Of a DNA stretch of 64,000 bases, positions 30,796 to 61,076 are shown piece by piece. Position 1 is the stretch's first letter; every line of letters starts with the position of its first letter. The notes under the pieces are model-generated. The model had not been told where the DNA came from and did no database searches. It worked only from the letters and a program-made list of their open reading frames with translations. Origin of the DNA: Gammaproteobacteria bacterium (GTDB lineage: Bacteria > Pseudomonadota > Gammaproteobacteria > JACCXJ01); the NCBI GenBank assembly GCA_050740455.1, contig JBOIDF010000001.1, positions 2,839-66,838 of the forward strand, in the 5' to 3' direction. A program made the position numbers and the translations under genes.

Positions 30796-31017
30796 CTACT
30801 ACCAGCGGGGCGGGTAAGCCTCATGTGCCTCACCCATGGTAGAGCAGATTTACGGCCAGACCCCCGCGGGTATAGAGCGCGTCGCGGTCTCATAGGTCCC
30901 GATGGCGCCGAGCATCACATGCAGCGCTGAGCAGAGATCACCCCTTGCGTCAATGCATGAGGTCTCGGAAGACCTATGCCTGTACCCGCCGTTCGTCACT
31001 CGATCGTCCGCGTCGAG

Positions 31018-31482
31018 CTAGAACGTAACGGTAACGGTGATATTGTCGGAGTAGCTGCCGACGGCGATGTTTTGCAGCGCGGGCACACGCCCGTATAGGG
31101 TATGGTTGACGGTCACCCCAAACAGCACCAGCGTGATGTTATTGCTTACGAACGACGTCCCGGCGCTGCCGTCCCCCCACACGTTGAGGCGGGTGGCAGC
31201 GGTGTACAAGTTGTAATTGAGCCGATTCGCCCCGCTCGCCATCTGTCTCGGCGCATAACTGCCGCTCAGGCCGGTGCTGAGCTTGATGTTGTAGTTGACC
31301 AAAAGCCCCAGTAGGCCGGTGCACTGGACCGTGATCGTCCCCGTCGCATCGCGGGGGCTGGCGTTGAAGACATTGTACGAACCGAAAGAAACAGGCGTTG
31401 CACTTACAGTACAGGCGGCCCTCGCTGCCGTGGAAAATACAATAAGAGCTAGACCGAGGAGTACCACGCAAAACCGTTTCAT
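31018..31482 (-). CDS. SCPU-domain (Csu-type) pilin subunit, second copy
   Basis: Signal peptide MKRFCVVLLGLALIV.. and the SCPU C-terminus ..YSDNITVTVTF. It is the last gene of the chaperone-usher operon. Confidence 0.7.
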   Translation of the reverse strand: MKRFCVVLLGLALIVFSTAARAACTVSATPVSFGSYNVFNASPRDATGTITVQCTGLLGLLVNYNIKLSTGLSGSYAPRQMASGANRLNYNLYTAATRLNVWGDGSAGTSFVSNNITLVLFGVTVNHTLYGRVPALQNIAVGSYSDNITVTVTF

Positions 31483-33821
31483 GGGACCACCCCGCGGCAT
31501 TCAAACGGACCGAGCCGCGGCAGAGGACCGGCGGCCTTCGGCAGCCGCACTTCGAAACGGCACCGCTGGCCGCGCCAGCGTGCTTCCAGCCGATTGAACC
31601 TCGCTAATTCGGTAACGTAAACCTCGCCGCGAAACGCGACCGGGAATTGCTCTTTTCCTCCAACCACGCGCACGATTGCGCCCGCCGGCAACGGGGAGCG
31701 GTCGCTCAGTACGATCGTCAGCAGCGCCGCGTTTGCTGGGCGAACGCCGAAATCGGCGAGCACGCCGCTCCGAAACGCCGGGGTGACGTCCATCCGCAGG
31801 GCGGCGAAACGCGCATCCAACGGCAAATCCGCTTGCTCGATGCCGATATTGTTTTTCTCGTATGCGCGAACCCTGGGAACCAGCGCGGTGCCTCTCGAAT
31901 TGGTACGCGCCACCGGCTGATTTTCGGCATAGATCCCCACGTTCGGGTAGTTGCCTACGCGAACCACTGCGAAGCTCTCGCTGATGCGGCGCGCGAGAAA
32001 CGCTTCGTTGCCCAGGGCGGCGAGCCCGCCCGATGCGCTTAGACGGTAGGCATCGGCGTCGCCGAATTGCGAAGTTTCGGCGCCAAACGTCCCGATGTCG
32101 TTCTGATAGAAAACCCCCGCTTCGGCGCGCGAATCGGTTCCTTCGAGGCCCAGGAGGCGATAGCCGAGCCCAGTCCCCTCGGGAAGGTTGCGCTGGATCT
32201 GGAAAGCACTCTGGTGATCGGCGTTCTGCTGGGTCCAATTGACGCTCGCGTTGGAGCGCTCGCCAAAGGCAAGGGTCAAGGTGATTCCTAAGCTGGTATC
32301 GCGCACGCCGGTTAAGCTCTGCAACGCGAATACCGAGAGGTGGTAATCGCGAAATATGTTACGATCGTATCCAACGCTGACGAATTCCACCCTTGGCTGT
32401 GACCGGTTGTCCTGCAGCAGGTAGCTCAGCGAAAAGGTGTCGCTTCCATCGGGAGAGACCGATACCCGCGCTAGGGTCGTCTGGCGGAGCTCGCCTTGAA
32501 CGCGCCCGAGCTGCGCAAAGTGCGGCGTGGTCCACTGCGATTGCACGCCGTAGCTTACGCGGCGCGCCTGGCGATCGAGGCCGAGCGCAAACAGCCCGCC
32601 TCCGCCTGCGTCGCTGCTGCTTGCCACCAGCGCAGCGTTCGCTACGCCGATTATGGGCCAAAGGTAGCTGGCGGAAAAGCCCAGCGCTTGCTGATCCTTC
32701 AGCACTTCGGCGCGCGCCTCTGCGGTGAGGCGATCGGTGACGCCCGCCCGGTACGTGGCGGCGCCAAATCCTCGCCCGTAATCGTTACTTTCGATGCCGA
32801 AGTTCTCGCGCTCGAATCCCAGATCAAAGGTGTAGTCGGTAAGCCCGGCTCGCAGCAGCGCCTGGCTTACGTAGTACGGAACGACCAGCACCCGTTGCCT
32901 TCCAAGCAGATCACGCACCACCAGTTGGACATCTCCGGCCCCGGTGGTCAGGGGCACGTTGGGGATCTCGAACGGGCCGGGAGGTACGCTTTGCTGTAGC
33001 CTCAAAGCGCTGTTGGCGAACAGCTCAACGGTGGAAGGGATCCTTGCTTCTCCGCTGAGGGTAGGCAGCGGAAATGTAATAAACTCAGGCTGGGTGGCAA
33101 AATTGGTTCCCCATTGTATCCCCCCGAAGCGCACCGAACCGCCCCACGCGCCAGGGCGCCCGATGGCATCTCCAAGCCGCAGGGTGCTGAGTCGTTCCGG
33201 ATCATCGGCGGTCCAGGTGGTCTCCAAGCGGGTGAACGAGTTCTGATCGCCGATATCGCGGGCAAGCGTCGTCGCGGTGCCCACCCCGAGGCGGTGGAAT
33301 AGCCCGAGCTCTATCAGGCCCGTCCAAGTTGCTGTGCGCCTCTGGTGCTGGAATTGAAGGTCGTAGTTGAGGAATCCGCCCAAGTCGATTTCCCCGGGCA
33401 GTGCAAATCTTTGCGACGGGACTCCCAGCACCGTCGCGGCAAAAATGTCGGGGGAGCCTTCGATATTAAGTTCCTGCGTGCGTTCGTCGAGTTGGTAGCT
33501 CAACCCCGGCACCGCATCGAGAGCGAAATACTCGATACCGCGAAAAAATGCAGCAGGGACAGCGGGCGGAGCGATGCGCCAATCCTGGAAGTCTGTTGCG
33601 GTCGCAAGCAGACGGCCGTCCGCCGAAATCAGTAAGCGTTTTGGCGCGCCCGTTTCTGCGCCGTTGATGCGAACTGAGAGCCAAGCCTGGGAATAACCCT
33701 GGGTCTCCTGCGCCGATACCTTGCGCAGCTTGAAACCTGGCGCGTCACGGGTTGGGGCCGAGACTGCGGTTGACTGCACGCCGGAGAGCGAAAGCGCGAT
33801 CCCGCCAAGCAGCACACCCAC
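31479..33821 (-). CDS. Fimbrial outer-membrane usher protein
   Basis: 780 aa. PapC/CsuD-like length and position between the chaperone and pilin genes. Confidence 0.75.
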   Translation of the reverse strand: MGVLLGGIALSLSGVQSTAVSAPTRDAPGFKLRKVSAQETQGYSQAWLSVRINGAETGAPKRLLISADGRLLATATDFQDWRIAPPAVPAAFFRGIEYFALDAVPGLSYQLDERTQELNIEGSPDIFAATVLGVPSQRFALPGEIDLGGFLNYDLQFQHQRRTATWTGLIELGLFHRLGVGTATTLARDIGDQNSFTRLETTWTADDPERLSTLRLGDAIGRPGAWGGSVRFGGIQWGTNFATQPEFITFPLPTLSGEARIPSTVELFANSALRLQQSVPPGPFEIPNVPLTTGAGDVQLVVRDLLGRQRVLVVPYYVSQALLRAGLTDYTFDLGFERENFGIESNDYGRGFGAATYRAGVTDRLTAEARAEVLKDQQALGFSASYLWPIIGVANAALVASSSDAGGGGLFALGLDRQARRVSYGVQSQWTTPHFAQLGRVQGELRQTTLARVSVSPDGSDTFSLSYLLQDNRSQPRVEFVSVGYDRNIFRDYHLSVFALQSLTGVRDTSLGITLTLAFGERSNASVNWTQQNADHQSAFQIQRNLPEGTGLGYRLLGLEGTDSRAEAGVFYQNDIGTFGAETSQFGDADAYRLSASGGLAALGNEAFLARRISESFAVVRVGNYPNVGIYAENQPVARTNSRGTALVPRVRAYEKNNIGIEQADLPLDARFAALRMDVTPAFRSGVLADFGVRPANAALLTIVLSDRSPLPAGAIVRVVGGKEQFPVAFRGEVYVTELARFNRLEARWRGQRCRFEVRLPKAAGPLPRLGPFECRGVVP

Positions 33822-33873
33822 CCGAAGCGCCTTACTGAGTTCCAGGGCGAGATCCTCTTACAGCGGACCGCCC

Positions 33874-34596
33874 TCACTGAGGTTCGAGGGCGAGATCCGC
33901 TTCGAGCGGACCGCCATCCGTTTCTGCCGACAAATGGATAGTGTGGCCTGGCAAGCCATCTGGTAACCGCACCACCCATTCCCGCGCTTGCCCCGCGAGA
34001 ATGTAGCCCGGAGCTTTGATCTCCGCAAGCGCTGACGCACCGGCGGTTGGCTTGAGGGCGAGGACGATGATCTGGGTATGCGCGTTGCCGGTGTTGCTCA
34101 CGCGGAGTTTGACCTCGTCTTGCCCGCTGCGCAACACACGCCAGTTAAGCTGCGGGCGAGCTGCGATAGCCGGCGCAACAAATATCGGAAGACCCACTCG
34201 CAACGCCACCCGCAGCCCCTGGTAGCCGGGCTGCGGGGGTGGGGGAACCTCCTCGAAGAATAGCCGGTAGGTTTGCTCGCGCCTGGCATCGACCGGTTGC
34301 GTCAATCCCACGCGAATTACTTGTGAGGCCGCGACCGGAAGGGTGAAAATCGGCGGGGTGGCGAGCACCTCGTCACTGCCGGCGTAGACATCCTGATCGC
34401 CGTCCATGGCCCACTTGAGCAACTGGAGCTGCACGACGACGACGGCATCCCCGTTATTCTTGACGGTGATGACCTCCGTCGGAGTCTGCTCGCTTAGATT
34501 GGCGCGCAGCGGAGTGAATTCAAAGCTGCCGGCGTAGACAAACTGAGCGCCCCACAGGCATCCGATAAGCAAGCCGGCAGTGAAGGGCGCGCGCAA
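33874..34596 (-). CDS. Periplasmic pilus chaperone (PapD/CsuC-like)
   Basis: 240 aa with a signal peptide and a PapD-like N-domain (..TPLRANLSEQTPTEVITVKNNGD..). Confidence 0.7.
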   Translation of the reverse strand: MRAPFTAGLLIGCLWGAQFVYAGSFEFTPLRANLSEQTPTEVITVKNNGDAVVVVQLQLLKWAMDGDQDVYAGSDEVLATPPIFTLPVAASQVIRVGLTQPVDARREQTYRLFFEEVPPPPQPGYQGLRVALRVGLPIFVAPAIAARPQLNWRVLRSGQDEVKLRVSNTGNAHTQIIVLALKPTAGASALAEIKAPGYILAGQAREWVVRLPDGLPGHTIHLSAETDGGPLEADLALEPQ

Positions 34597-40450: not shown

Positions 40451-41002
40451 TCAAGGCAGGAGATCGGCGACCGCGACCGCCTGGCTCGCCCCGCTCGGCA
40501 CGAGCGTTTCACCCTTTTTTACAATACGGTGCTCAAGATAATCTGAGCCTTGCGGGTTCCGGTAGACCTCGAGCACACCCTCGATGAGGTTGGCCAGCCA
40601 GTATTCCGGGACCCCATTCCGGGCATACAGCACCCGCTTTGTGGAACGGTCGTAGGCGAGCGTGGTGTCGGCGATCTCCACGAGGAGCACGGCGTTGCTC
40701 GGGTGGCTCGTGAGGAAGTCCCGCGGCCTGCCCGGGACGATCGCGAGATCGGGCTCCGGTGCCGAGCCGGCGTCCAGGGCTACGGGAGACTGGATACGGA
40801 CGACATAGCCGTCTCCGTACGCACGGCGCAAGGCGTCGTGCAGGAGGCAGAGGGCCACCGCGTGCGCTTCGTTCTGAGGCGCCATATCCACGATCTCCCC
40901 GTCGATCAACTCCAGGCGTTGGTCGGGTTCGAAGCCCCCGAGCCGCACTACACGCTCATATTGCTCGCGCGTCCAACGATGAGGCTTGGGAAGGGTGCTC
41001 AT
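40451..41002 (-). CDS. Uma2-family (DUF820) PD-(D/E)xK endonuclease
   Basis: 183 aa. Contains ..ELIDGEIV.. and ..PDLAIV.. blocks. Confidence 0.7.
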   Translation of the reverse strand: MSTLPKPHRWTREQYERVVRLGGFEPDQRLELIDGEIVDMAPQNEAHAVALCLLHDALRRAYGDGYVVRIQSPVALDAGSAPEPDLAIVPGRPRDFLTSHPSNAVLLVEIADTTLAYDRSTKRVLYARNGVPEYWLANLIEGVLEVYRNPQGSDYLEHRIVKKGETLVPSGASQAVAVADLLP

Positions 41003-41165
41003 GACAACTCTAACATAGTCTAAGGGTGGACCTGAAACAACCAGGGGTCAGGTCTCCTATCTTGCATACATTCAAACGATGATTACTACGGCATGTGTCG
41101 TATTCTACGGTGAATCGTGAAGACTATTGAAACGGCCAACGCCGTTGGGTGCAGGTTAACCACTC

Positions 41166-41870
41166 TCAGTATCTGCGATTGCCTGCCGGCCGATACAGCC
41201 GCACGTGGCGATATTTAAAGAATGGGATCAGCGCCATGCCCGCGACAAAGCCGCTCGCATGAGCAACAAACGCCACGCCCCCTTGGTCCGCGCTGGTGAG
41301 TGCCGAATTGAGCAGCTGCACGCCAAACCATAGGCCCAGAACCCACAACGCGGGCAGGCGCATGAGCTGCGAGAGAAAGCCGAAAGGTATTAGAACCAAG
41401 ACTTGGGCACGCGGGAAGAGCAGCAGATAAGCGCCGAGCACGCCCGAGATGGCGCCACTGGCGCCGATCATGGGGATCTTGCTTTCTGGGTTGAGCAAGG
41501 ACTGGCCAAGCGCCGCGATCGCACCGCACGCAAGGTAGAACACCACGAAGCGCCGATGCCCCATGGAGTCTTCGACATTGTTGCCGAAGATCCACAGGTA
41601 CAGCATGTTGCCGATGAGGTGCATGAAACCGCCATGCAGGAACATGGACGAAAAGACCGTGAACCACGCCGGCGCCATCACCAGCTCCGGCGCTAATTCA
41701 ATGTCCGTGAAGAATAAAGCGGGGATGAACCCTAAGCCATAAACGGCCTGATCATAAGCTTCGGAACCCAAGCTGCTCTGCCACAGGAAGATCAACGTGC
41801 AGGCACCGATGAGAGCCACCGTCACCAGCGGGGTGAGGGCGGCCGGGATATCAGCGCGTAGTGGAATCAT
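41166..41870 (-). CDS. Rhomboid-family intramembrane serine protease
   Basis: GASGAISGVLGAYLLLFP contains the GxSG motif; six or more TM helices. Confidence 0.8.
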   Translation of the reverse strand: MIPLRADIPAALTPLVTVALIGACTLIFLWQSSLGSEAYDQAVYGLGFIPALFFTDIELAPELVMAPAWFTVFSSMFLHGGFMHLIGNMLYLWIFGNNVEDSMGHRRFVVFYLACGAIAALGQSLLNPESKIPMIGASGAISGVLGAYLLLFPRAQVLVLIPFGFLSQLMRLPALWVLGLWFGVQLLNSALTSADQGGVAFVAHASGFVAGMALIPFFKYRHVRLYRPAGNRRY

Positions 41871-41952
41871 GAGCGTTCACAATGGGTGCTTAGCAATCCT
41901 CAAACCGTATAATATACGATGACACCCTACCGGCGAGTCCGCACAGCTCACA

Positions 41953-42243
41953 ATGACAAGCGAAAAGAAGATCGATAGCCCGCTTCTCGCCTCCTATGTC
42001 ATCGCGGTTCTCACCGAGGATCACGGCGATCGCATGTTCGTCGCGCTCGATCAATACCGAAATCGGTTGGTCTGGTCGCGGAAGTATCGGCCGTCGGTCG
42101 TGTATGACAGCGCCGACAAGGCGCTCATGGCGATGGAGGACATCAGCGGCGGAAGACATCCGCATTTGCTCGACGAAAAAGCGGGGGTGGATCTCGCGAC
42201 GATGTGCGTATTGGAAACGAGCATTTCCTTCCGGTTTAGCTAA
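41953..42243 (+). CDS. Small hypothetical protein (96 aa), first gene of the ATP-grasp/GCS2 cluster
   Basis: ORF with no recognisable domain. It is co-directional with, and 9 nt upstream of, the C39-like peptidase gene. The RBS is weak. Confidence 0.4.
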   Translation: MTSEKKIDSPLLASYVIAVLTEDHGDRMFVALDQYRNRLVWSRKYRPSVVYDSADKALMAMEDISGGRHPHLLDEKAGVDLATMCVLETSISFRFS

Positions 42244-42251
42244 GGCTTTGG

Positions 42252-42977
42252 ATGACGCTCCCGACAGAAACGCGGCTGCCCATCATCATGCAGCCGCAAC
42301 CGGACGAGGCCACCTGCGGTCCGACCTGCCTGCATGCCGTGTATCAATTTTACGGCGGCAAGGACAGTCTGCACGCCGTGATCGAACGTACCCAGAGCCT
42401 CGACACCGGCGGTACGCTGGCTGTCTTCCTCGCCTGCGATGCCTTGCGCCGGGGCTATGCCGCAACCATCTACACCTATAACCTGCAAGTCTTCGATCCC
42501 ACCTGGTTTAAAGCACCTGGCGCCGATCTGAGCGAACGTCTGCGGCAACAGATGCGGTATAAAACCGACGAGAAACTACAAACCGCTTGCCGTGGCTACT
42601 TGGAATTCCTTGTCCTCGGGGGGCAGTTGCGCTTTACCGATCTCACGCGGCGCTTGATCCGCGAATATCTTGGCCGCTCTATACCGATCCTCACCGCCTT
42701 GAGCGCGACCTATCTCTATCGCAGCATGCGCGAGTACGGGCCCAAGGACACGCCCGACGATATCCGCGGCGAGCCGTCCGGCCATTTCGTGATACTGTCC
42801 GGATACAATCCGGCCGAGCGCACGGTATTGGTCTCCGATCCCTTGCTGCCGAACCCACTGTCCGACTCCCATCTCTATGCGATCGACGTGGACCGAGTGA
42901 TCTCCTCCGTGCTCCTGGGGATCCTCACCTACGACGCCAATGTGCTCCTCATCCGGCCGCGATCCCAAGCGCAGTGA
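42252..42977 (+). CDS. Papain-fold cysteine peptidase, C39-like
   Basis: ..QPDEATCGPTCLHAV.. has the catalytic Cys context, and a later ..PSGHFVILSGY.. supplies the His. Confidence 0.55.
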   Translation: MTLPTETRLPIIMQPQPDEATCGPTCLHAVYQFYGGKDSLHAVIERTQSLDTGGTLAVFLACDALRRGYAATIYTYNLQVFDPTWFKAPGADLSERLRQQMRYKTDEKLQTACRGYLEFLVLGGQLRFTDLTRRLIREYLGRSIPILTALSATYLYRSMREYGPKDTPDDIRGEPSGHFVILSGYNPAERTVLVSDPLLPNPLSDSHLYAIDVDRVISSVLLGILTYDANVLLIRPRSQAQ

Positions 42978-42986
42978 CGCCCTTCG

Positions 42987-44459
42987 ATGTCTATTCTTAT
43001 CGTCGTCAATAATCCTCGGGATTGGCCCTTGCACATTCCGGGGGTGGAGGTCGTTCCGGCGCGCGCCTACCTGAGCGATTCCAATTACAGCGTGGACCGC
43101 AGCGCTAAGGTCTTCAACCTTTGCAAATCCTACCGTTACCAGAGCGTCGGCTACTACGTCTCGCTGCTGGCCGCGGCCCGCGGCCACAAACCGCTCCCGA
43201 ACGTCAACACCATCGAAGATCTCAAATCGCAGAATATCATCCGCTTGTTGGCCGAGGACCTGGACGATACCATTAAGCGCGCGCTTACGCCCCTCAGTAG
43301 CGAGGAGTTCACGCTCAGCATCTATTTCGGACAGAATCCTCAGGGGCGCTATGAAACCCTGAGCCGGCAGCTTTTCAACCTGTTCGAGGCGCCTGCCCTG
43401 CGTGCCCAGTTCGTCCGCGACCACGAATGGCGGCTCAAAAACGTGCGCCCCATCGCTGCTAGCGAAATTCCCCCCGAGGATCATGACATCGTGGTCGCCG
43501 CGGCCACCAACTATTTCTCCGGACAGAAACGTCGCGTGCGTAAGCGCACGGTGCCGCGCTACGCCTTGGCGATCCTCCATACCCCTAGCGAGCCCCGAGG
43601 CGCTTCCGATGCCAAGGCCCTGCAGCGCTTCGAGAAGGCTGCGGAAGCCGTGGGGCTCGATGTCGAAATCATCTCCAAGGACGATATAGGACGGCTCGCG
43701 GAATTCGACGCCTTGTTGATCCGCGACACCACGGCGGTCAATCACTATACCTATCGCTTCGCCCGGCGCGCGGCCGCCGAGGGCTTGGTTGTCATCGATG
43801 ATCCGGACTCCATCCTCAAATGCACCAACAAAGTCTACCTGGCCGAGCTGCTCTTGCGTCACGGCGTCCCCACGCCCAAGACGCTCGTCGTTCACCGTGA
43901 CAACATCGATCAAATCGCCACCACGCTCGGCCTGCCGTGCGTCGTGAAACAGCCCGACAGCTCGTTCTCGCACGGGGTCGTGAAGATCGAGAATCTACAG
44001 GATCTCGAACCCACGGTGATCCAGCTTTTGGAAAAGTCCGAGCTGGTCGTGGCGCAGGAATTCCTGCCCACGGAGTTCGATTGGCGCGTGGGGATCTGCG
44101 ATCGCCGCGCGCTCTACGTCTGCAAATACTTCATGGTCCGCCGCCACTGGCAGATCGTCAAGCGCGATGATTCCGGGCAGATCGGCGGCGAAGGGAGCGT
44201 ACAGACGCTGAGCGTGGGTGAAACCCCCGAGGAGGTGATCCGCGCCGCGTTGAAGGCGGCGGATCTCATCGGGGACGGGCTCTACGGTGTCGATATCAAG
44301 CAAATTGGCCGGCGCTGCTGCGTGATCGAGGTCAACGACAACCCGAATATCGACGCCGGATACGAGGACGCCGTGCTGCGCGACGGCCTTTATCGCGAGA
44401 TCATGGGGATATTTTTGAGGCGGATCGTGGAACATAAGCAAGCCAAGCACGAACGATGA
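42987..44459 (+). CDS. RimK-type ATP-grasp ligase with ~250-aa N-terminal extension (RLAN-like)
   Basis: C-terminal ATP-grasp (..LGLPCVVKQPDSSFSHGVVKI.., ..GVDIKQIGRRCCVIEVNDNPNI..). The N-terminal MSILIVVNNPRDWPLHIPGVEVVPARAYLS.. domain is not RimK-like. Confidence 0.7.
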   Translation: MSILIVVNNPRDWPLHIPGVEVVPARAYLSDSNYSVDRSAKVFNLCKSYRYQSVGYYVSLLAAARGHKPLPNVNTIEDLKSQNIIRLLAEDLDDTIKRALTPLSSEEFTLSIYFGQNPQGRYETLSRQLFNLFEAPALRAQFVRDHEWRLKNVRPIAASEIPPEDHDIVVAAATNYFSGQKRRVRKRTVPRYALAILHTPSEPRGASDAKALQRFEKAAEAVGLDVEIISKDDIGRLAEFDALLIRDTTAVNHYTYRFARRAAAEGLVVIDDPDSILKCTNKVYLAELLLRHGVPTPKTLVVHRDNIDQIATTLGLPCVVKQPDSSFSHGVVKIENLQDLEPTVIQLLEKSELVVAQEFLPTEFDWRVGICDRRALYVCKYFMVRRHWQIVKRDDSGQIGGEGSVQTLSVGETPEEVIRAALKAADLIGDGLYGVDIKQIGRRCCVIEVNDNPNIDAGYEDAVLRDGLYREIMGIFLRRIVEHKQAKHER

Positions 44460-45697
44460 TCGCGGCGAGCGCAAGCCCCCTGTCCTTGTTCGCCGGCTAC
44501 GGGATCGAGCTCGAGTACATGATTGTCGATTCTGCGAGCTTGGATGTGTTAGCGATCGCCGATAAGCTTATCCATGCCGTGACCGGCGATTATCGATCCG
44601 AGGTCGAGCAAGGAGAGCTTGCCTGGTCCAACGAGATGGTGCTGCATGTTATCGAGATCAAGACCAATGGACCGGCCGGCGCGCTCGAGCCCTTGCCGGC
44701 GCTGTTCCAACGCGACATCACGCGCGTCAACGAGTTACTCGCACCGCATGAAGCCTGCCTGATGCCCGGGGCGATGCATCCTTGGATGGATCCGCGCAGC
44801 GACACCCGGCTTTGGCCGCACGAGTATAACCCCGTCTACGAGGCCTACGAGCGGATCTTCGGCTGCCAGGGACATGGGTGGTCGAATCTGCAAAGCGTGC
44901 ACCTTAACCTGCCGTTCGCGGGCGATGCTGAGTTCGCCCGGTTGCATGCCGCCATTCGCGTGCTGCTCCCGGTGTTGCCTGCCCTCGCCGCAAGCTCGCC
45001 CATCGTCGAAGGACAATGCACCGGCATGCTCGACTACCGGCTCGAAGCCTATCGGTTAAACGCGCGCAAGATCCCCTCGATCACCGGGCGCGTGATCCCC
45101 GAAACCGTGTCGAGCCGCGGAGATTACGAGACCGGGGTCCTCGGCCCGATGTACCGCGATATTGCGCCCTCCGATCCGGACAGCATTCTGCGGCACGAGT
45201 GGCTAAACTCGCGCGGCGCCATCGCGCGCTTCGACCGTTCGGCGATTGAAATCCGCGTCCTCGATATTCAGGAATGTTCGCTGGCGGACTTGGCGGTCCT
45301 GGCCGCGATCGTGAGCGCGTTGCAGCGCCTCGCCGCCGAAGACTGGGGCGATCTCCAGGCACAACAAGCGCTTACGACCGAGGAGCTTGAGGCTATCCTG
45401 CTGGAAACCGCGCGTAGCGGCGAACAGGCGGTCATCGACAATACGCGCTTCCTGCGGGTGGTGAGGTTTCCGGATCGGCGTTGCGAGGCGCGGGATCTCT
45501 GGCATCATCTGATCGAGGCGGCGCCCGCGGGCGAGATCTGGCGCACACCTCTGCGGACGATCCTGCGCTCGGGCCCGCTCGCGCGGCGGCTGCTGCGCGC
45601 CGCGGGTAAGGAGCCGAAACGCTCGCGCCTCATCGCGGTTTACGCCGAGCTTTGCCGCTGCCTGGCTGCGGGACACCAGTTCCTTGGCCTCGATTGA
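44456..45697 (+). CDS. Carboxylate-amine ligase, GCS2/YbdK (gamma-glutamylcysteine-synthetase-like) family
   Basis: ..YGIELEYMIVD.. is the N-terminal signature of COG2170 ligases. It overlaps the ATP-grasp stop by 4 nt. Confidence 0.7.
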   Translation: MIAASASPLSLFAGYGIELEYMIVDSASLDVLAIADKLIHAVTGDYRSEVEQGELAWSNEMVLHVIEIKTNGPAGALEPLPALFQRDITRVNELLAPHEACLMPGAMHPWMDPRSDTRLWPHEYNPVYEAYERIFGCQGHGWSNLQSVHLNLPFAGDAEFARLHAAIRVLLPVLPALAASSPIVEGQCTGMLDYRLEAYRLNARKIPSITGRVIPETVSSRGDYETGVLGPMYRDIAPSDPDSILRHEWLNSRGAIARFDRSAIEIRVLDIQECSLADLAVLAAIVSALQRLAAEDWGDLQAQQALTTEELEAILLETARSGEQAVIDNTRFLRVVRFPDRRCEARDLWHHLIEAAPAGEIWRTPLRTILRSGPLARRLLRAAGKEPKRSRLIAVYAELCRCLAAGHQFLGLD

Positions 45698-46400
45698 TTG
45701 CGTTATTGTCACCTGCGAGCACGCGAGCCGGCGCGTGCCGTTCCGCTACCGTGCGTTATTTCGTGGTCAGGAAGCGGTGCTGAAAACTCATCGAGGGTCC
45801 GATCTCGGCGCGCTACGGCTCGCGCGCGAGCTTGCGACGGCGCTGGAAGCACCGCTCTTCGCCGGGAGCGTAAGTAGGCTCCTAATCGATCTGAATCGCT
45901 CCTTACATCACCTGAAGGTGTACTCCGCGATCACGCGGGCTTGTACCGAGAACGACCGGCGGCGGCTCGCCGCGAATTATTACCTGCCGTACCGGAATGC
46001 GGTGGAACAGTGGATCGCGCACCGCGCCCGCCGAGGCCGCACCGTTTTGCACCTTTCCATCCATAGCTTCACGCCGGTTTTGGACGGCCAGGTACGGCAT
46101 GCCGATATCGGGCTTCTTTACGATCCCCGGCGGGCGTTGGAACGAACGCTCTGCGGCGCTTGGCGCCGGGCCCTTTGCAGGGCGGCGCCTGCGCTTACGC
46201 TACGGCTAAATTACCCTTATCGCGGTAAGACGGACGGCTTTACGGCATACCTCCGCCAGCGGTTCCCTTCTAGCGCTTATCTCGGGGTCGAAATAGAAGT
46301 CAACCAAACGCTTGTCCATAGCGGCTGGAAGCGGCTACGACAGTTGCTTCGCGCGACACTCAAGGAAACTCTTTGCAGCATGCTTCCATCGCCTGTCTAA
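45684..46400 (+). CDS. N-formylglutamate amidohydrolase (FGase) family protein
   Basis: ..VIVTCEHASRRVP.. and ..LHLSIHSFTP.. are FGase motifs. It overlaps the upstream stop. Confidence 0.65.
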   Translation: MASIDCVIVTCEHASRRVPFRYRALFRGQEAVLKTHRGSDLGALRLARELATALEAPLFAGSVSRLLIDLNRSLHHLKVYSAITRACTENDRRRLAANYYLPYRNAVEQWIAHRARRGRTVLHLSIHSFTPVLDGQVRHADIGLLYDPRRALERTLCGAWRRALCRAAPALTLRLNYPYRGKTDGFTAYLRQRFPSSAYLGVEIEVNQTLVHSGWKRLRQLLRATLKETLCSMLPSPV

Positions 46401-46504
46401 TCGCTGTTTAATAGCAACTGCGACGCCCCGATCAGCTCCGCCCGAGCCCGGGTGCAGTGTGCACGGCTTTTGCCCTTGATGAGCATCGGGAGACTAAACT
46501 AATC

Positions 46505-47974
46505 ATGACCAAGACTGCAGCGATTCCATTCCAGGCATTACTCGGCGGCCTCTTTCTAGCCTTGGGAGCCTTGATTCCGGCGGCTTCCGCGGCCACCCCG
46601 CGGGCTGACACCGCTTCCAGGAGCATCCGCGACCCGTTCCCCCAGCCGCCGGAACTGCGAGATGCGGTGGATTTTTGGCGGCGGGTGTTCGCCGTTTGGC
46701 GACGCGACCAGGTCGTTTTGCACGATACCGAAAACCTAGGCATCGTCTACGACATCGTTGAACTTCCCGGGCCGGTGGCGGACGCACAGACCCCACGCCA
46801 ACAAGCCTACGTGCGTGCCCGGCGCCAATCCTTGGAGCGCGGATTGCGGGAGCTGGCGCGCCGGGTCAAGTTTAGGATGGGCTTGAACAAAGAACAGCAG
46901 CGTCTGCTTGGCGTGATCCGTCACGGCGCCGGCACCCATGTCCTGGCGGGCGCGGATTCCCGGGTACGGGCTCAGCGCGGTATGCGCGAGCGGTTCCTGA
47001 AGGGTCTGGAGATCAGCGGCCGCTATGACCGGCTCATGCGCGCTATATTCCGCGACGCGGCTTTGCCCGAGGATCTCGCGCTCCTACCCCACATCGAATC
47101 GTCGTTTGTTAACCATGCACGCTCCTCGGCGGGCGCCGCCGGGATGTGGCAGTTCATGCCGGCGACCGGCCGGCGGTTCCTCCGCATCAACAGCGCGGTC
47201 GATGAACGCTTCGACCCGATCCTGGCCGCGCACGGCGCCGCGCGCTATTTGCGGAACGCCTACGATGATCTCGGCGACTGGGCCCTGGCCATCACTTCTT
47301 ATAACCACGGCGTCGGCGGGATGGTGCGCGCTCAGCGGCAGTTCGGGCGTGACTTCGGCCGCATCGTCCGGAGCTACCGCGGCAAGACCTTCGGATTTTC
47401 CTCACGTAACTTTTACGCGGAATTTCTGGCTGTCCGTTCCATCCTTGATGCGGAGCGGCGCTATTTTCCCGAAGGGGTGCGCTACCAACGTCCCCTAGAC
47501 CACCAACGCATCCGGTTGAAACAAGCGCTGCCCCTCACGCGACTAGCAGCGAGTTACGGCGTTCACCGCGAGCTTCTCGTTGACCTTAACCCGGCCTGGA
47601 CACGGCGGGCGGCGCGCGGACTCGTTTCCCTACCGGCGGGTTCCGAGATCTGGTTGCCGAGCGGCGCTCGGGTTGCGAGTACGCGGACTTACGCAGAATC
47701 GGTATCACCGGCGGGCCGGGAGTTCATCCGCCCGAGCGGAGAATTCCTGCGCGCGGGTTTGGTCTACAACCCGATAGAGTTTTCGCCGCGCCCCACCGAA
47801 ACGCCGCGGCGGAAGCGGTCTAAGGAACGTACCCATATCGTGCGCAGAGGCGAGTGGCCCATTTTGATCGCAAGCCGATACGACGTACCGTTGAAGGATC
47901 TTATGGTTTTGAACGATATCGGGCGCCGGGGCATCATCCGGCCCGGACAGCGATTGCGTATTCCGGCGCGTTAA
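46505..47974 (+). CDS. mltD: Membrane-bound lytic murein transglycosylase (SLT domain + C-terminal LysM), MltD-like
   Basis: ..ESSFVNHARSSAGAAGMWQFMPATG.. is the SLT catalytic region. The C-terminal ..HIVRRGEWPILIASRYDVPLKDLMVLNDI..IRPGQRLRIP is a LysM domain. Confidence 0.7.
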   Translation: MTKTAAIPFQALLGGLFLALGALIPAASAATPRADTASRSIRDPFPQPPELRDAVDFWRRVFAVWRRDQVVLHDTENLGIVYDIVELPGPVADAQTPRQQAYVRARRQSLERGLRELARRVKFRMGLNKEQQRLLGVIRHGAGTHVLAGADSRVRAQRGMRERFLKGLEISGRYDRLMRAIFRDAALPEDLALLPHIESSFVNHARSSAGAAGMWQFMPATGRRFLRINSAVDERFDPILAAHGAARYLRNAYDDLGDWALAITSYNHGVGGMVRAQRQFGRDFGRIVRSYRGKTFGFSSRNFYAEFLAVRSILDAERRYFPEGVRYQRPLDHQRIRLKQALPLTRLAASYGVHRELLVDLNPAWTRRAARGLVSLPAGSEIWLPSGARVASTRTYAESVSPAGREFIRPSGEFLRAGLVYNPIEFSPRPTETPRRKRSKERTHIVRRGEWPILIASRYDVPLKDLMVLNDIGRRGIIRPGQRLRIPAR

Positions 47975-47996
47975 GGAAAATAAATCAAACCGCGCC

Positions 47997-50900
47997 ATGA
48001 CGCTTAAGGCACGTAAAATATTGGTGAGGATCTTGTCCTGGAGCGCGCTGGCCGGGCTCGTAACCGTCGGGGCGCATTTCCTTGCCGAGGAAATGGATTC
48101 GTCGGCGCTCCAATCCCGCTATCTTTCTTCCTTAGGCACGCAACTGACTTATACCCTGGAACCGGGATCGAGCGCGCGAATTCGCTTTCCCGAGACCGGA
48201 CCCTATGATTTGCGGCTCGGTTATGTCGGCCTCCCGGCCTTTCTTAAGCGTCTGCGGCAGTTCGGTTACGAGATCAAAAGGCAAGCACGCTTCTCTCCCA
48301 TGCTGGAGCGGGTGTTCGACGCCGGATTGTTTACCGCCTACCGGGAGAAAACCCAGGGGGGGCTCCGGATCTTCGATCGCGACGATCGCCTGCTTTTCAA
48401 AGCGATGTACCCGGCGCGTGTCTACCCGGACTTCGGGTCGATTCCACCGCTCGTGCTGCACACCTTGCTTTACATCGAAAACCGGGAACTGCTGGATGAG
48501 AACAAGCGCCATAAGAATCCGGCGATAGAATGGGACCGCTTCGGACGGGCGGTGCTCGAAGGACTGGCGCAAAAACTGGGCGCCAATATCCATGTCACCG
48601 GGGGCAGCACGCTGGCCACACAACTGGAGAAATACCGTCATTCGCCGGGTGGCCAGACAGCTTCTGTCGGGGACAAGCTACGGCAGATGGCGAGCGCCTC
48701 GTTGCGCGCTTACCTCCAGAGTCCCGACACCTTCGAGTCCCGGCGCGGGATCGCGCTTGCCTATGTGAATACCGTCCCGCTCGCGGCCGCCCGCGGTTAC
48801 GGCGAAGTTCACGGCCTCGGCGATGGCCTGTGGGTCTGGTACGGCCAAGATTTTTCGGCGGTGAACGGTCTGTTGCGCGAGGAAGGTATCGGCGGCGCTG
48901 GGCTCGCGGAGCGGGCAGCCGCCTACCGCGACACACTGTCGCTGCTATTGGCCCAGCGGCGTCCAGCGTACTTCCTCGGGCGCGGTCATAAGGCGCTGCA
49001 ACGCTTAGCCGACAGCTACCTGCGGCTCCTAGCGACTGATGGGATCATCCCAGCCGCTTTGCGTGATGCCGCGCTCAGCAGACGCAACGTGCCGCACCAC
49101 GGACCGGTGGAGAAAGCGCAACGAAAATTTACCGATCATAAAACCGAGACCGTGCTTCGCTCTCGTTTAGCCCAGGCATTGGGTGTCTCGCGCTTGTACG
49201 ATCTGGATCGGCTGGATCTGAGCGCAAAAAGCACCATCGATAAATCAGCGCAGCAGGCCGTGACGCAGGCTTTGCGAAATCTTTCTGTTGCGGAACACGC
49301 CCACGCAGCGGGGCTCGTTGGGTTTCGCTTGTTTGGCGAAGGCAACGATTTAAGCCGTGTCGTGTATAGCATGATCCTATTCGAGCGCAGCCCGAAGGGT
49401 AATCTACTCCGGGTGCAGACCGATACTTACGCAAACCCGCTCGACATCAACGAGGGCGTGCGACTGGATCTCGGATCGACCGCCAAGCTGCGTACTCTAG
49501 TGCATTATCTCGAGCTCGTGGCCGAGGTGCATCGGCGCTACGCGGGCGGCAAGGGCAAGGAACTTAATAAGCCCGACGTTCATGCGCGCGACCGCCTATC
49601 GCAGTGGGTGGTCGACCAGTTGCGATCAAACCCGCATCTGACGCTCTCCGCGCTACTGGACGCCGCTTTGGAACGGCGGTATTCGGCCAACCCCGGGGAA
49701 CGATTTTTCACCGGCGGAGGGCTGCATAGTTTCGTCAATTTCAACGGCGCGGATAACGGCAAGATCCTGTCCGTCCGGGAGGGATTGCGCGATTCCGTAA
49801 ACCTTGTTTTTATCCGCATAATGCGCGACATCGTGCGTTACCATCTGTACAAACCCGGGGGCGTGGGACGTAAGACCGAATCCGCCGACGGCGAGTGGCG
49901 CCGCAAGTATCTTGAGCGTTTCGCCGACCAGGAGGGCCAAGTTTTTCTGCGCCGCTTCTATGCGAAGTACCGCGGCAAAAAACCGGGCCAAGTGATGGAC
50001 TTGCTCACCGAGAGCGTCTACCCTACCGCGGTGCGTCTGGCTACCGTCTATCGCTCGGTTTTTCCCGAGCGCACCTTGCGCGCGTTTAGCGGATACCTGC
50101 GCCGCCGCGTCGATGCTGCTCACCTTTCGGAGCGCAAGGTCAAACACCTCTATGATAAGTATTCTCCCGAACGCTACAACCTGCACGACCGCGGTTATAT
50201 AGCCCACATCCATCCGCTGGAGCTCTGGCTTGTGACTTACCTCGTAGCACATCCCGCCGCGCCCTTCGCGGACGTTGTTGCGGCGAGCACGCAACAACGC
50301 CAGGAGGTGTATCAATGGCTGTTTAAGACCCGCCGTCAGCATGCCCAGAACAAACGCATTCAAGGCCTGCTAGAAATAGAGGCTTTCGGAGACATTCACA
50401 GCGCCTGGCAACGCCTCGGATATCCGTTTCAGACCCTCACGCCTTCTTATGCTTGCGCTATCGGCGCCTCGGCGGATCGTCCCGGGGCGCTGGCGGAGCT
50501 CGTTGGGATCCTGCTTAATGGGGGCGTGCGCTATCCGACGGTCCGCTTCGAATCCCTGCACTTCGCGGCGGACACGCCTTATGAGACAGTTATCGAGCGG
50601 CCGCTCGCGCATGGACAAGCGGTGCTTGCGCCCGAGGTCGCGGCCGCGGCGCGCGCCGCGCTCATCGATGTGGTTGAGAACGGCACGGCGCAGAGGCTTA
50701 AGGGGGCAATTAAAGACGCTCACGGCGTACCATTGGTTGTCGCCGGCAAGACCGGCACCGGCGATCATCGCCGAGACGTTTATGGCGCGGGCGGACGCTT
50801 GATCGAGTCGCGCGTTCTAAACCGCACGGCGACCTTCGCCTTTACGCTTGGCGAACGGTTCTTCGGCGCCATCACCGCGTTTGTGTCGGGTCCGGAAGCG

Positions 50901-56119: not shown

Positions 56120-57136
56120 ATGTCTACAAGAGAAGGTTTGCTCGCACTGACCGTCACCACCTTAGTGTTATCGCTGATCAACCCGCTAGCATCCTGGGCT
56201 AAGGAGATCAGTTTGCTCAACGTCTCCTATGATCCGACGCGCGAGCTGTACCAGGAGTATAACGCCGCGTTCGCGAAACACTGGCAGGAAAAGACCGGCG
56301 ATACCGTGACCGTGCAGCAGTCGCATGGCGGCTCCGGTAAGCAGGCACGCGCCGTCATCGACGGGCTCGAGGCGGACGTGGTGACCCTGGCTCTCGCCTA
56401 CGACATCGATGCCATCGCCGAGAAATCGGGCTTCATCCGCAAAAACTGGCAATCCGATCTACCGGGCTCGAGTTCCCCCTACACCTCCACGATCGCCTTT
56501 CTGGTGCGTAAGGGTAATCCCAAGGGGATCAAGGACTGGGATGACCTCGTTAAGCCCGGCGTTTCGGTGATCACGCCGAATCCCAAGACCTCCGGAAGCG
56601 CCCGCTGGAATTACCTCGGCGCCTGGGGTTACGCCTTGTTGAAATCGAATCGTGACGAAGCCAAGGCCAAAGACTTCATCGCCAAGCTCTATAAGAACGT
56701 GCCGGTGCTCGATACCGGGGCGCGCGGCGCCACCACCACCTTTGTCCAACGTGGCATCGGAGATGTGCTTATCAACTGGGAGAATGAGATTCTGCTGGCC
56801 GGCAAGGAGTTAGGCCCGGATAAGTTCGACATCGTCGTGCCGCCAAGCAGTATCCTGGCCGAGCCTACGGTCGCCGTGGTCGAAAAGGTCGCGGACAAGC
56901 ACGGCACGATCGAGGCCGCGCGCGCCTATCTTGAGTATCTCTACACCAAGGAAGGCCAGGACATCGTCGCCAAGCACTTTTACCGGCCGGTGGATGCGGA
57001 GGTCGCGGCCAAATACGCCTCCCAGTTCCCGAAGCTGACGCTGTTTACGCTCGCGGAAATAGTGGGCGATTGGAAGAAAACCAATCAGGTCCACTTCGCC
57101 GATGGCGGGGTGTTCGATCAGATCTACGGACAGTGA
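56120..57136 (+). CDS. sbp: Sulfate/thiosulfate ABC transporter substrate-binding protein
   Basis: 338 aa. ..[32 protein letters not shown].. is typical of Sbp/CysP. Confidence 0.85.
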
Positions 57137-57191
57137 GCAAAGCAATAGAGGGCTTTAGCCATTAACCCGTCCAAGACTGAGGAGAAACTCT

Positions 57192-57353
57192 TATGACTGA
57201 TTTTATATGGGGCTTTATTCTGGGTCTGCTCGTTAGCAGCTTCGGCGTCTTTCTCACGCTGGCCCTAGCGTACGTCGGCGCGCGTGCGGATGCAGACGAG
57301 TTGGCCGATTGGCGCAGCCTGGGCACAGAGGACGATTGGGTATGGATCGGTTA
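57192..57353 (+). CDS. Small membrane protein (53 aa), not in the ORF track
   Basis: GAGGAGAAACTCTT-ATG RBS. MTDFIWGFILGLLVSSFGVFLTLALAYVG.. is a single TM helix. It sits between sbp and mop. Confidence 0.4.
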
Positions 57354-57621
57354 GAGGTGCTCAACCGCAATGCGGTGCGGCCAGATCATACGCTCCTGCC
57401 TCCACCACCTCCCCGGTCCGCTCGGGCCGGGGTCTTTTAAGCGTGAGGGGAGCTATGGGAATCGCCGTCGCGCGGATGCCGGGATGGGCCGCGAGTTTTC
57501 TTAGGGTGCGGTAAGCACATGCGGAGCAGGCGGCGGATAGCTCGTGGAGACGAGCATCAGTAAGCGGTTGCATGATCAGTGCTGCCACGTGAGTTTAACT
57601 TAGATAATAGAGGTATATATC

Positions 57622-61065: not shown

Positions 61066-61076
61066 CGAAGCCACTC

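What the first reader, a model, noticed from the sequence alone, without database searches (positions are those of the whole stretch)
41953..46400. Compact five-gene ligase/hydrolase cluster with an RLAN-RimK ATP-grasp: candidate peptide- or amide-tagging system
Five co-directional genes run with 4-14 nt overlaps and look operonic. They are a small ORF, a C39-like peptidase, an RLAN-RimK ATP-grasp, a GCS2/YbdK carboxylate-amine ligase and an N-formylglutamate amidohydrolase. Two mechanistically distinct ATP-dependent amide-bond ligases plus two amide/peptide hydrolases, with no transporter or regulator, fit the peptide-ligase neighbourhoods predicted in comparative-genomic surveys of ATP-grasp, GCS2 and FGase genes. 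To my knowledge none has been biochemically solved. The 96-aa upstream ORF could be a substrate or scaffold protein. The cluster is flanked by unrelated genes (rhomboid, mltD), so it is self-contained.
Basis: partly seen in the sequence, partly recalled or inferred. Interest (0 to 1): 0.75.

Follow-up and report, generated by a model that had tools for sequence, protein, structure and literature searches.

The report
Conserved glutamyl-ligase and hydrolase gene cluster
This is a real, widely conserved bacterial cluster of two ATP-dependent amide-bond ligases and two hydrolases whose product is still unknown; the small 96-aa gene next to it is a bystander, not its substrate.

Summary
The ORFs and all four domain assignments hold: C39-like cysteine peptidase (42252-42977), RLAN+RimK ATP-grasp (42987-44459), GCS2 ligase (44456-45697) and FGase-family amidohydrolase (45684-46400).

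In 80 genome loci from many phyla:
- the peptidase lies directly upstream of the RimK gene in 59 of 76 assessable loci;
- GCS2 lies directly downstream in 54 of 66;
- FGase follows in 31 of 57.

So the unit is a three-gene core with a frequent fourth gene, not five genes. The 96-aa ORF has only 11 homologue clusters. Two homologues, at 72% and 64% identity, sit in unrelated contexts. No small ORF is co-conserved with the cluster, so it encodes no tag or precursor of its own.

Catalytic residues look intact in the peptidase and the ATP-grasp, and conserved candidate residues are present in the other two enzymes.

My best reading, at moderate confidence, is a cytoplasmic module that makes and trims a small glutamate-containing peptide or amide. 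Tagging of a protein encoded elsewhere remains a live rival.

The neighbourhood type is, as far as I recall, already predicted by comparative genomics. I found no experimental study of it. This is one more member of a recognised but biochemically unsolved cluster, of moderate interest.

The parts
42252..42977 (+). g2: cytoplasmic papain-fold cysteine peptidase of the C39-like type (241 aa) with a roughly 100-aa, mostly helical addition to the C39 core. First gene of the conserved core.
42987..44459 (+). g3: RLAN-RimK ATP-grasp ligase (490 aa). RLAN domain aa 25-170 (43059-43496); pre-ATP-grasp region about aa 190-280; ATP-grasp aa 281-456 (43827-44354).
   Evidence: Pfam RLAN 3e-49 and RimK 6e-10. 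All NCBIfam RimK, LysX and MptN models score far below their cut-offs. More than 8000 homologues; in the 80 genome loci identity runs from 54% upward, median 59%, across phyla. PDB sequence hits are only RimK and LysX, over aa 236-460. R246, R374 and N450 align with RimK R64, R189 and N262, which contact poly-Glu in PMC10092738, and are invariant. K321, D436, E448 and N450 are also invariant.
44456..45697 (+). g4: GCS2 / YbdK-superfamily carboxylate-amine ligase (413 aa). Its start overlaps the g3 stop by 4 nt.
   Evidence: Pfam GCS2 4e-30 over aa 16-294. YbdK and GshA NCBIfam models are all far below cut-off. Invariant G16, E18, E20, N59, E60, H64, H108, R253, R267 and others in 14 diverse homologues. 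The only PDB sequence hit is plant glutamate-cysteine ligase, E 0.006. Directly downstream of RimK in 54/66 loci.
45684..46400 (+). g5: FGase-family (N-formylglutamate-amidohydrolase-like) hydrolase, 238 aa from a TTG start. A frequent but not universal fourth gene.
   Evidence: Pfam FGase 2e-25. The HutG equivalog TIGR02017 scores 16.9 bits against a cut-off of 278.75. Nearest solved structure is 2odf, hypothetical protein Atu2144, E 7e-23. The N-terminal (T/S)CEH motif is kept only with the TTG start. Present in 31/57 assessable loci.
41953..42243 (+). g1: small 96-aa gene 8 nt upstream of g2. Probably a real protein and probably co-transcribed here, but a lineage-specific passenger and not part of the conserved module.
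   Evidence: No Pfam, NCBIfam or PADLOC match. Only 11 homologue clusters. Homologues at 72% and 64% identity lie in unrelated neighbourhoods. Beside the cluster only in L001-L004.

Best explanation
g2-g5 form a self-contained cytoplasmic enzyme module that builds and trims a small glutamate-containing peptide or amide, without a ribosomal precursor or a dedicated tag protein.

Proposed steps (all inferred, none shown):
1. The RLAN-RimK ATP-grasp (g3) activates an acceptor carboxylate as an acyl-phosphate and adds an amino acid, most likely L-glutamate, through an alpha-amide bond.
2. The GCS2 ligase (g4) activates a glutamate gamma-carboxylate and joins it to an amine, the chemistry of gamma-glutamylcysteine ligases. 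The two ligases would therefore make two different amide bonds in one product.
3. The FGase-like hydrolase (g5), whose family cleaves N-acyl-glutamate, removes a terminal glutamate. That would reverse the RimK step.
4. The C39/papain-fold enzyme (g2) cleaves or transfers the peptide through a Cys-acyl intermediate.

Shown here: domain identities, intact catalytic residues in g2 and g3, tight co-conservation of g2-g3-g4 with or without g5, and the absence of a co-conserved small gene. Inferred: the substrates, the order of steps and the nature of the product.
For: Domain assignments.

Catalytic or candidate residues:
- g2 Q16/C22/H178/D196 invariant.
- g3 residues equivalent to RimK's poly-Glu contacts invariant.
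- g4 E18/E20/E60/H64 invariant.
- g5 CEH motif kept.

Same order and strand across phyla: 59/76, 54/66 and 31/57.

Self-contained unit:
- Genes that follow GCS2 in loci without FGase are unrelated: an oxidoreductase, a sigma-54 regulator, anthranilate synthase and GH57.
- No small ORF is co-conserved beside the cluster in distant loci.
- g1 is unlinked.

Possible fusions: single-ORF C39::RLAN-RimK and RLAN-RimK::GCS2 proteins exist in metagenomes, and some RLAN-RimK proteins carry an N-terminal GNAT domain.

Precedent: the NAGGN operon. It encodes the peptide-bond-forming Ngg, an amidotransferase and a glutamyl aminopeptidase, has no transporter, and shows 51-84% identity between distant bacteria. 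It makes a small dipeptide osmoprotectant (PMC8070244). High conservation and an in-operon peptidase therefore do not require a protein substrate.

The best NCBIfam relatives of g3 include ligases for non-protein acceptors (MptN, CofF, glutathione synthetase), beside LysX and the S6 ligase.
Against: No product, substrate or phenotype is known. Nothing here measures chemistry.

- Classical RimK and LysX act on protein C-termini.
- Thirteen loci carry RLAN-RimK alone, so the ligase may not depend on the other three.
- The fusions could be lost-stop or frameshift artefacts. g2 and g3 are in the same frame in the window.
Confidence: 0.45

Rival explanations
1. Reversible protein or peptide tagging of a substrate encoded elsewhere. 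RLAN-RimK adds glutamate(s) to a protein C-terminus, as RimK does on S6. GCS2 then links a glutamate gamma-carboxylate to a lysine or other amine, as PafA does with Pup. The C39-like peptidase and the FGase-like hydrolase act as processing or erasing enzymes.
For: - g3's closest solved relatives, RimK and LysX, act on protein C-termini.
- All four proteins are strongly conserved across phyla.
- The GS/GCS2 superfamily includes PafA (my knowledge).
Against: - No tag, carrier or precursor gene is co-conserved.
- g1 is unlinked.
- g3 fails the S6-ligase equivalog model: 41 bits against a cut-off of 331.
- By my by-eye alignment, RimK's acceptor-binding S7/R8 are replaced by H198/T199.
- Small-molecule operons can be equally conserved.
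Confidence: 0.25
2. Salvage or catabolic pathway. The two hydrolases are the primary activities, breaking down gamma-glutamyl or N-acyl-glutamyl peptides such as cell-wall or glutathione-like peptides. The ligases re-use the pieces.
For: - FGase relatives are catabolic; HutG acts in histidine degradation (family knowledge).
- g2 resembles PeiR, a cell-wall isopeptidase, and Alr0975, which I know as a glutathione-cleaving enzyme.
- In this window the cluster is followed by an MltD-like gene and a PBP1-type transglycosylase gene.
Against: - The cell-wall neighbours are not conserved outside close relatives.
- FGase is the least conserved member: 31/57 loci.
- No transporter or hut genes are linked.
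- Two ATP-spending ligases as the conserved core argue for synthesis rather than breakdown.
Confidence: 0.1
3. One reading: a five-gene system in which the 96-aa protein g1 is the substrate or scaffold that gets tagged.
For: g1 lies 8 nt upstream of g2 on the same strand and is probably co-transcribed. It is a real conserved small protein.
Against: - It has only 11 homologue clusters.
- Homologues at 72% and 64% identity sit in unrelated contexts.
- It is absent from 76 of 80 genome loci that carry the ligase.
Confidence: 0.03
4. The adjacency is a chance event or an annotation artefact, and the genes work independently.
For: Thirteen loci have RLAN-RimK alone, as do P. aeruginosa, Azospirillum and Aeromonas paralogues.
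Against: - The same order and strand recur in 50+ loci across many phyla, with short gaps or overlaps.
- Possible gene fusions exist.
Confidence: 0.02

Closest known systems
RLAN-RimK / GCS2 / FGase / papain-like peptidase neighbourhood, predicted by comparative genomics (Iyer, Abhiman, Burroughs & Aravind 2009, Mol Biosyst 5:1636, the source of Pfam RLAN PF14401). Cited from memory; the paper is not in the library.
   Same: Same four families, same order, and the same lack of a transporter or regulator. The window's cluster is a typical member.
   Different: Nothing differs in kind. New here: numbers for core versus accessory genes, exclusion of g1 and of any co-conserved small ORF, and candidate fusion and GNAT-fused architectures.
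RimK (ribosomal protein S6 poly-alpha-glutamate ligase) with the RimB protease in Pseudomonas
   Same: RimK-type ATP-grasp with conserved Mg/ATP residues and Glu-contact residues. A ligase paired with a protease (PMC10092738).
   Different: g3 carries an extra 180-aa RLAN domain. It scores 41 bits against the 331-bit S6-ligase cut-off. Its partners are GCS2, FGase and C39 rather than RimA/RimB. No link to rpsF was seen.
NAGGN osmoprotectant operon (asnO-ngg-peptidase; PA3459-PA3461)
   Same: A non-ribosomal peptide-bond-forming enzyme, a second amide-forming enzyme and a glutamyl peptidase in one operon with no transporter. Highly conserved across distant bacteria. Glutamine/glutamate-centred (PMC8070244).
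   Different: Different families (asparagine synthetase, M42 peptidase). The GNAT-RLAN-RimK proteins found here do not hit an Ngg model. g3 itself has no GNAT domain.
Glutathione / phytochelatin route (gamma-Glu-Cys ligase, ATP-grasp glutathione synthetase, papain-fold phytochelatin synthase)
   Different: No Pfam Phytochelatin hit for g2. g3 falls in the RimK clade, not the GshB clade. g4 is below every GshA cut-off. There is no evidence for cysteine as a substrate.
Pup-PafA-Dop pupylation
   Same: A GS/GCS2-superfamily ligase that activates a C-terminal glutamate gamma-carboxylate, paired with an eraser hydrolase (my knowledge).
   Different: No Pup-like gene is co-conserved. No proteasome or Mpa genes are nearby. 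The eraser belongs to a different family.
C39 double-glycine peptidase domains of bacteriocin ABC exporters (PCAT1, ComA, LahT)
   Same: Best structural match, with the same Gln/Cys/His/Asp arrangement.
   Different: g2 is a stand-alone cytoplasmic protein with a roughly 100-aa addition. There is no ABC transporter and no leader-peptide gene.

Membership tests
RLAN-RimK ATP-grasp family (PF14401 + PF08443) | N-terminal RLAN domain followed by a RimK-type ATP-grasp in a protein of about 490 aa | tested here: met
   RLAN 166.9 bits (cut-off 25) at aa 25-170. RimK 39.6 bits (cut-off 21) at aa 281-456. The 119 further listed homologues are 64-83% identical at 485-494 aa, besides one at 99%.
RLAN-RimK ATP-grasp family (PF14401 + PF08443) | ATP-grasp catalytic and nucleotide/Mg-binding residues retained | tested here: met
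   K321, D436, E448, N450, R246 and R374 are invariant in 20 sequences. They align to RimK R64, R189 and N262 (residue roles from PMC10092738).
Conserved C39-like / RLAN-RimK / GCS2 (+/- FGase) gene neighbourhood | The genes are adjacent, co-directional and in this order | tested here: met
   The window has all four. Frequencies in 80 loci: 59/76, 54/66 and 31/57.
Canonical RimK (30S protein S6--L-glutamate ligase) | Scores above the equivalog cut-off of NF007764 | tested here: not met
   41.4 bits against a cut-off of 331. rimK_fam TIGR00768 scores 68.1 against 143.4.
YbdK / GshA-type GCS2 ligases | GCS2 domain present | tested here: met
   PF04107 105.6 bits (cut-off 21).
YbdK / GshA-type GCS2 ligases | Membership of a named equivalog (YbdK, cyanobacterial GshA, EgtA) | tested here: not met
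   TIGR02050 62.9 against 176.4; TIGR02048 34.5 against 249; TIGR03444 16.1 against 370.8.
HutG N-formylglutamate deformylase | FGase fold, above the HutG equivalog score, and hut gene context | tested here: not met
   The FGase domain is met (90.7 bits). TIGR02017 scores only 16.9 against 278.75. No hut genes lie in the flanks.
Peptidase C39 (bacteriocin-processing double-glycine peptidase) | Papain-like fold with Gln/Cys/His/Asp catalytic residues | tested here: met
Peptidase C39 (bacteriocin-processing double-glycine peptidase) | Fused to or beside an ABC exporter, with a double-glycine leader-peptide gene nearby | tested here: not met
   Stand-alone 241-aa protein. There is no ABC exporter next to the cluster and no co-conserved small ORF.
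Pup-like or ubiquitin-like tagging system | A small tag protein encoded with the ligase | tested here: not met
   g1 is unlinked in other genomes. No small ORF of 18-110 aa is conserved in the flanks of 58 upstream and 48 downstream regions beyond close relatives.
RiPP ATP-grasp systems (graspetides / microviridins) | Precursor peptide gene and an MdnC-type ATP-grasp | tested here: not met
   No precursor gene. g3's best matches are the RimK, LysX and MptN clade.
Phytochelatin synthase (C83) | Pfam Phytochelatin domain; gamma-Glu-Cys transpeptidase activity | tested here: inconclusive
Known anti-phage defence systems | Match to a PADLOC model | tested here: not met
   No hit for any of the five proteins.

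The most novel reading that the evidence does not exclude
The module is a new kind of reversible protein modification system with no dedicated tag gene. RLAN-RimK would install C-terminal glutamate(s) on a housekeeping protein encoded elsewhere. The GCS2 ligase would convert the glutamate gamma-carboxylate into an isopeptide or amide link, as PafA does. The C39-like and FGase-like enzymes would act as the two erasers. RLAN would be the substrate-recognition domain.
Probability: 0.2. Interest if true: 0.8.

Novelty: new member of a known kind. Interest (0 to 1): 0.42.

Why it matters
The cluster is widespread. Median identity to the window's proteins is 48-59% across phyla. Yet none of its four enzymes has a known substrate.

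Solving it would assign function to a large set of genes now named only 'RimK family protein', 'glutamate-cysteine ligase family protein' and 'N-formylglutamate amidohydrolase'. It could reveal either a new glutamate-based metabolite, such as an osmolyte, a thiol or a storage or signalling peptide, or a new bacterial protein-glutamylation cycle.

This window adds no unusual feature to that question. The useful outputs of this check are:
- the definition of the real unit: a three-gene core plus FGase;
- removal of the 96-aa ORF as a candidate substrate;
- a list of culturable carriers: Thiobacillus thioparus DSM 505, Legionella adelaidensis NCTC12735, Tautonia sp. JC769 and Sulfurirhabdus autotrophica.

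Tried and rejected
1. g1 as substrate or scaffold: rejected on distribution and context.
2. A hidden small tag or precursor ORF: all ORFs of 18-110 aa within 700 nt of the cluster ends were clustered. Only synteny within single lineages was found.
3. Defence system: no PADLOC hit.
4. RNA elements: no Rfam family reaches its gathering score anywhere in the window. There are no consensus promoters and no internal terminators in 41100-48100.
6. Extra conserved neighbours: clustering of all flanking ORFs gave only the four families plus antisense shadow ORFs. Genes after GCS2 in loci without FGase are unrelated. An ORF abutting a solo RimK (L012) is not a diverged C39.
7. GNAT-RLAN-RimK as the known Ngg enzyme: no Ngg model hit. 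The GNAT part is only weakly RimI-like.
8. Literature: nine full-text searches found no experimental work on this cluster. Iyer et al. 2009 is not held. The only mentions of PA1345 in P. aeruginosa papers are rows in two gene tables, one a list of predicted Cpx-regulator binding sites and one a differential-expression list. I equate PA1345 with the P. aeruginosa solo paralogue by gene order only.
9. The 465-aa antisense ORF at 42576-43973: treated as a high-GC shadow ORF, because the + strand genes have thousands of homologues.
Full report
**What is in the sequence.** Five co-directional ORFs lie on the + strand between 41953 and 46400:

| gene | coordinates | length |
|---|---|---|
| g1 | 41953-42243 | 96 aa |
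| g2 | 42252-42977 | 241 aa |
| g3 | 42987-44459 | 490 aa |
| g4 | 44456-45697 | 413 aa |
| g5 | 45684-46400 | 238 aa, TTG start |

The g1-g2 and g2-g3 junctions are gaps of 8 and 9 nt. g3/g4 overlap by 4 nt and g4/g5 by 14 nt. No consensus promoter was found anywhere in 41100-48100. The only two terminator-like sites lie downstream of g5, inside the MltD-like gene. GC content does not differ from the flanks. The window is an exact match to contig CDIABF010000018.1 of the metagenome-assembled genome GCA_975305705.1. A relative with 97% protein identity is labelled as an uncultured gammaproteobacterium.

**Domain checks.**
- g2: Peptidase_C39_2, E 5e-9.
- g3: RLAN, E 3e-49, plus RimK ATP-grasp, E 6e-10.
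- g4: GCS2, E 4e-30.
- g5: FGase, E 2e-25.
- g1: no match in Pfam (even at E<=10), NCBIfam or PADLOC.

The flanks are a rhomboid gene and a Uma2 gene on the opposite strand upstream. An SLT+LysM (MltD-like) gene and a PBP1-type transglycosylase gene lie downstream.

None of g3, g4 or g5 reaches the cut-off of any named NCBIfam equivalog:
- g3 against the S6-glutamate ligase model: 41 bits, cut-off 331.
- g4 against YbdK: 63 bits, cut-off 176.
- g5 against HutG: 17 bits, cut-off 279.

They are therefore distinct subfamilies, not orthologues of the characterised enzymes.

**Are the enzymes active?**
- g2: a 24-sequence alignment has invariant Q16, C22, H178 and D196. This is the oxyanion Gln, Cys, His and Asp layout of papain-fold and C39 peptidases.
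- g3: residues aligned to RimK R64, R189 and N262, which contact the poly-glutamate chain (PMC10092738), are R246, R374 and N450. All three are invariant, as are K321, D436 and E448.
- g3, by my own by-eye alignment (an inference): RimK's acceptor-binding S7/R8 are replaced by H198/T199.
- g4: E18, E20, N59, E60, H64, H108, R253 and R267 are invariant in 14 diverse homologues. I read these as the metal and nucleotide site of the GS/GCS2 fold. That rests on family knowledge and was not verified structurally.
- g5: a (T/S)CEH motif at residues 10-13 appears in the N-terminal alignments of the homologues (all 35 start within the first 12 residues; 14 were inspected). It exists only if the TTG at 45684 is the start. 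The deposited annotation begins at the GTG at 45735 and removes it.

No obvious signal peptide is visible in any of the four N-termini, so I take them to be cytoplasmic. That is an inference by eye.

**Is the cluster conserved?** g3 has more than 8000 homologues. The next 119 listed, after one 99% match, are 64-83% identical and 485-494 aa long. They carry labels from Proteobacteria, Planctomycetota, Verrucomicrobiota, Nitrospirota, Acidobacteriota, Fibrobacteraceae, Bacteroidetes, Thermodesulfobacteriota and others.

tblastn with the window's proteins gave these counts, restricted to loci with enough flanking DNA:

| neighbour of the RimK gene | loci | median identity to the window's protein |
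|---|---|---|
| C39-like, directly upstream, same strand | 59/76 | 58% |
| GCS2, directly downstream | 54/66 | 53% |
| FGase, following GCS2 | 31/57 (31 of 48 with GCS2) | 48% |

RimK itself has a median identity of 59%. The rhomboid, MltD-like, Uma2 and PBP genes are conserved only in near-identical relatives. Genes that follow GCS2 where FGase is missing are unrelated to one another.

Thirteen loci carry RLAN-RimK alone. Most carry Gallionella/Gallionellaceae, Nitrosomonadales, Nitrosomonas or Nitrosospira labels, and two are labelled Verrucomicrobiota. More distant solo paralogues exist in P. aeruginosa, Azospirillum and Aeromonas. The unit is therefore a three-gene core with a frequent fourth gene.

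**The 96-aa ORF.** g1 has only 11 homologue clusters among 5.8 billion proteins. It is probably a real protein, since homologues go down to 59% identity. The 72% homologue lies between a ParDE pair and an aldehyde dehydrogenase. The 64% homologue lies between an MFS transporter and a GNAT gene. Neither has a ligase cluster nearby. g1 is a passenger in this lineage.

I also searched 700 nt on each side of the cluster in 58 upstream and 48 downstream regions for any conserved ORF of 18-110 aa. Only synteny within single lineages appeared. The module therefore encodes no tag, carrier or precursor of its own.

**Other architectures.** A full HMMER scan with the RLAN region found only 834 representative clusters. 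Among the full-length hits, most are about 490 aa with RLAN at the N-terminus. Exceptions:
- Proteins with an N-terminal GNAT domain ahead of RLAN-RimK. The GNAT part is weakly RimI-like and does not match an Ngg model.
- Single-ORF C39::RLAN-RimK proteins: P0263, P0276, P0307 and P0369.
- One RLAN-RimK::GCS2 protein: P0353.

These hint at physical coupling. However, g2 and g3 share a reading frame in the window, so a single lost stop codon would give the same picture. I treat the fusions as suggestive only.

**How it most likely works.** All four families centre on glutamate-type amide chemistry (family knowledge):
- RimK-clade ligases add an amino acid, usually L-Glu, to an activated carboxylate.
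- GCS2 ligases activate a glutamate gamma-carboxylate toward an amine.
- FGase hydrolyses N-acyl-glutamate.
- Papain-fold enzymes cleave or transfer peptides through a thioester.

The simplest reading is two 'writers' making two different amide bonds and two 'erasers or processors'. FGase would be the direct reverse of the RimK step.

No substrate gene travels with the module. An operon of similar logic makes the small osmoprotectant NAGGN, and its enzymes are 51-84% identical between distant bacteria (PMC8070244). That operon has a peptide-bond-forming enzyme, a second amide-forming enzyme and a glutamyl peptidase, and no transporter. On this basis I favour a small glutamate-containing peptide or amide as the product (confidence about 0.45).

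The main rival is glutamylation or isopeptide tagging of a protein encoded elsewhere (about 0.25). It is supported by g2's closest resemblance to true peptide-processing C39 proteases and by the protein substrates of RimK and LysX. A glutathione/phytochelatin-like thiol peptide is one attractive special case of the favoured reading. The three superfamilies match that pathway, but nothing here points to cysteine.

**Comparison with what is known, and novelty.** From memory, this neighbourhood was described by Iyer et al. 2009, the study behind Pfam RLAN. I could not read that paper. Nine full-text searches found no experimental work on it. The P. aeruginosa solo paralogue, which I equate with PA1345 by gene order only, appears in the literature only as a 'hypothetical ATP-binding protein' in two gene tables.

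The window's cluster is a typical member with no unusual feature. It is a new member of a recognised but unsolved kind. Interest is moderate: the open question is real and the family is large, but this instance does not make it more tractable beyond the clarifications above.

Noticed in passing
window 45684-45735: The deposited annotation of this contig starts the FGase gene at GTG 45735 (221 aa). The TTG at 45684 restores a (T/S)CEH motif seen in the N-terminal alignments of the homologous loci (35 aligned, 14 inspected), so the deposited start is probably wrong.
   Followed up: yes
P0320, P0304, P0313, P0387, P0329 (hits): A recurring GNAT + RLAN + RimK architecture. The GNAT part is weakly RimI-like (58 bits, below cut-off) and is not the Ngg family. 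It suggests an N-acylation step coupled to ligation in a sister branch.
   Followed up: partly
P0263, P0276, P0307, P0369, P0353 (hits); window 42252-42987: Metagenomic single-ORF proteins join C39 to RLAN-RimK, and one joins RLAN-RimK to GCS2. g2 and g3 are in the same reading frame in the window, so these may be real fusions or lost-stop/frameshift artefacts.
   Followed up: partly
L090 (NZ_CP133752.1 32459-45925): P. aeruginosa has a solo RLAN-RimK paralogue (44% identity, 529 aa) convergent with a PLP-dependent aminotransferase and near ggt, aatJQMP and pagP. By gene order I take it to be PA1345, listed in the literature only as a hypothetical ATP-binding protein with a predicted Cpx-regulator binding site upstream.
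   Followed up: partly
L090 (NZ_CP133752.1) and L093 (NZ_AP026896.1, 4.9 Mb): Two PLSDB 'plasmid' records look like chromosomal DNA. One carries P. aeruginosa housekeeping genes and the other is 4.9 Mb long.
   Followed up: no
L007 3049-5487, L010 3419-5839, L017 5-778: In loci labelled Gallionellaceae or Nitrosomonadales the solo RLAN-RimK gene has a LonB/LonC-like protease gene within about 6 kb upstream. Orientation and distance vary, so this is probably lineage synteny.
   Followed up: partly
window 57985-58916: An EAL-domain gene is split into two adjacent ORFs of 227 and 83 aa. This may be a frameshift or a pseudogene. It sits inside a sulfate/molybdate-type ABC transporter region (about 56120-62207).
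   Followed up: no
window about 30900-34500 (- strand): A chaperone-usher pilus cluster with two SCPU (spore-coat-U-like) subunit genes, a PapD-like chaperone and an usher.
   Followed up: no
window 1628-5106 (- strand): Two large adjacent ORFs (584 aa and about 552-575 aa) with no Pfam family on record. They lie next to three methyltransferase genes and sugar-modification genes (Bac_transf, PglD-like, DegT aminotransferase, epimerase/dehydratase) up to about 14.5 kb, probably a glycan biosynthesis locus.
   Followed up: no
window about 17100-17700 (- strand): A BrnT/BrnA-like toxin-antitoxin pair, on weak or faint Pfam hits only. A Uma2-family endonuclease gene lies at 40451-41002, just upstream of the rhomboid gene.
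   Followed up: no
window 42576-43973 (- strand): A 465-aa antisense ORF spans g2 and g3. It is almost certainly a high-GC shadow ORF. The same artefact appeared opposite the C39 and FGase genes in many other loci.
   Followed up: partly
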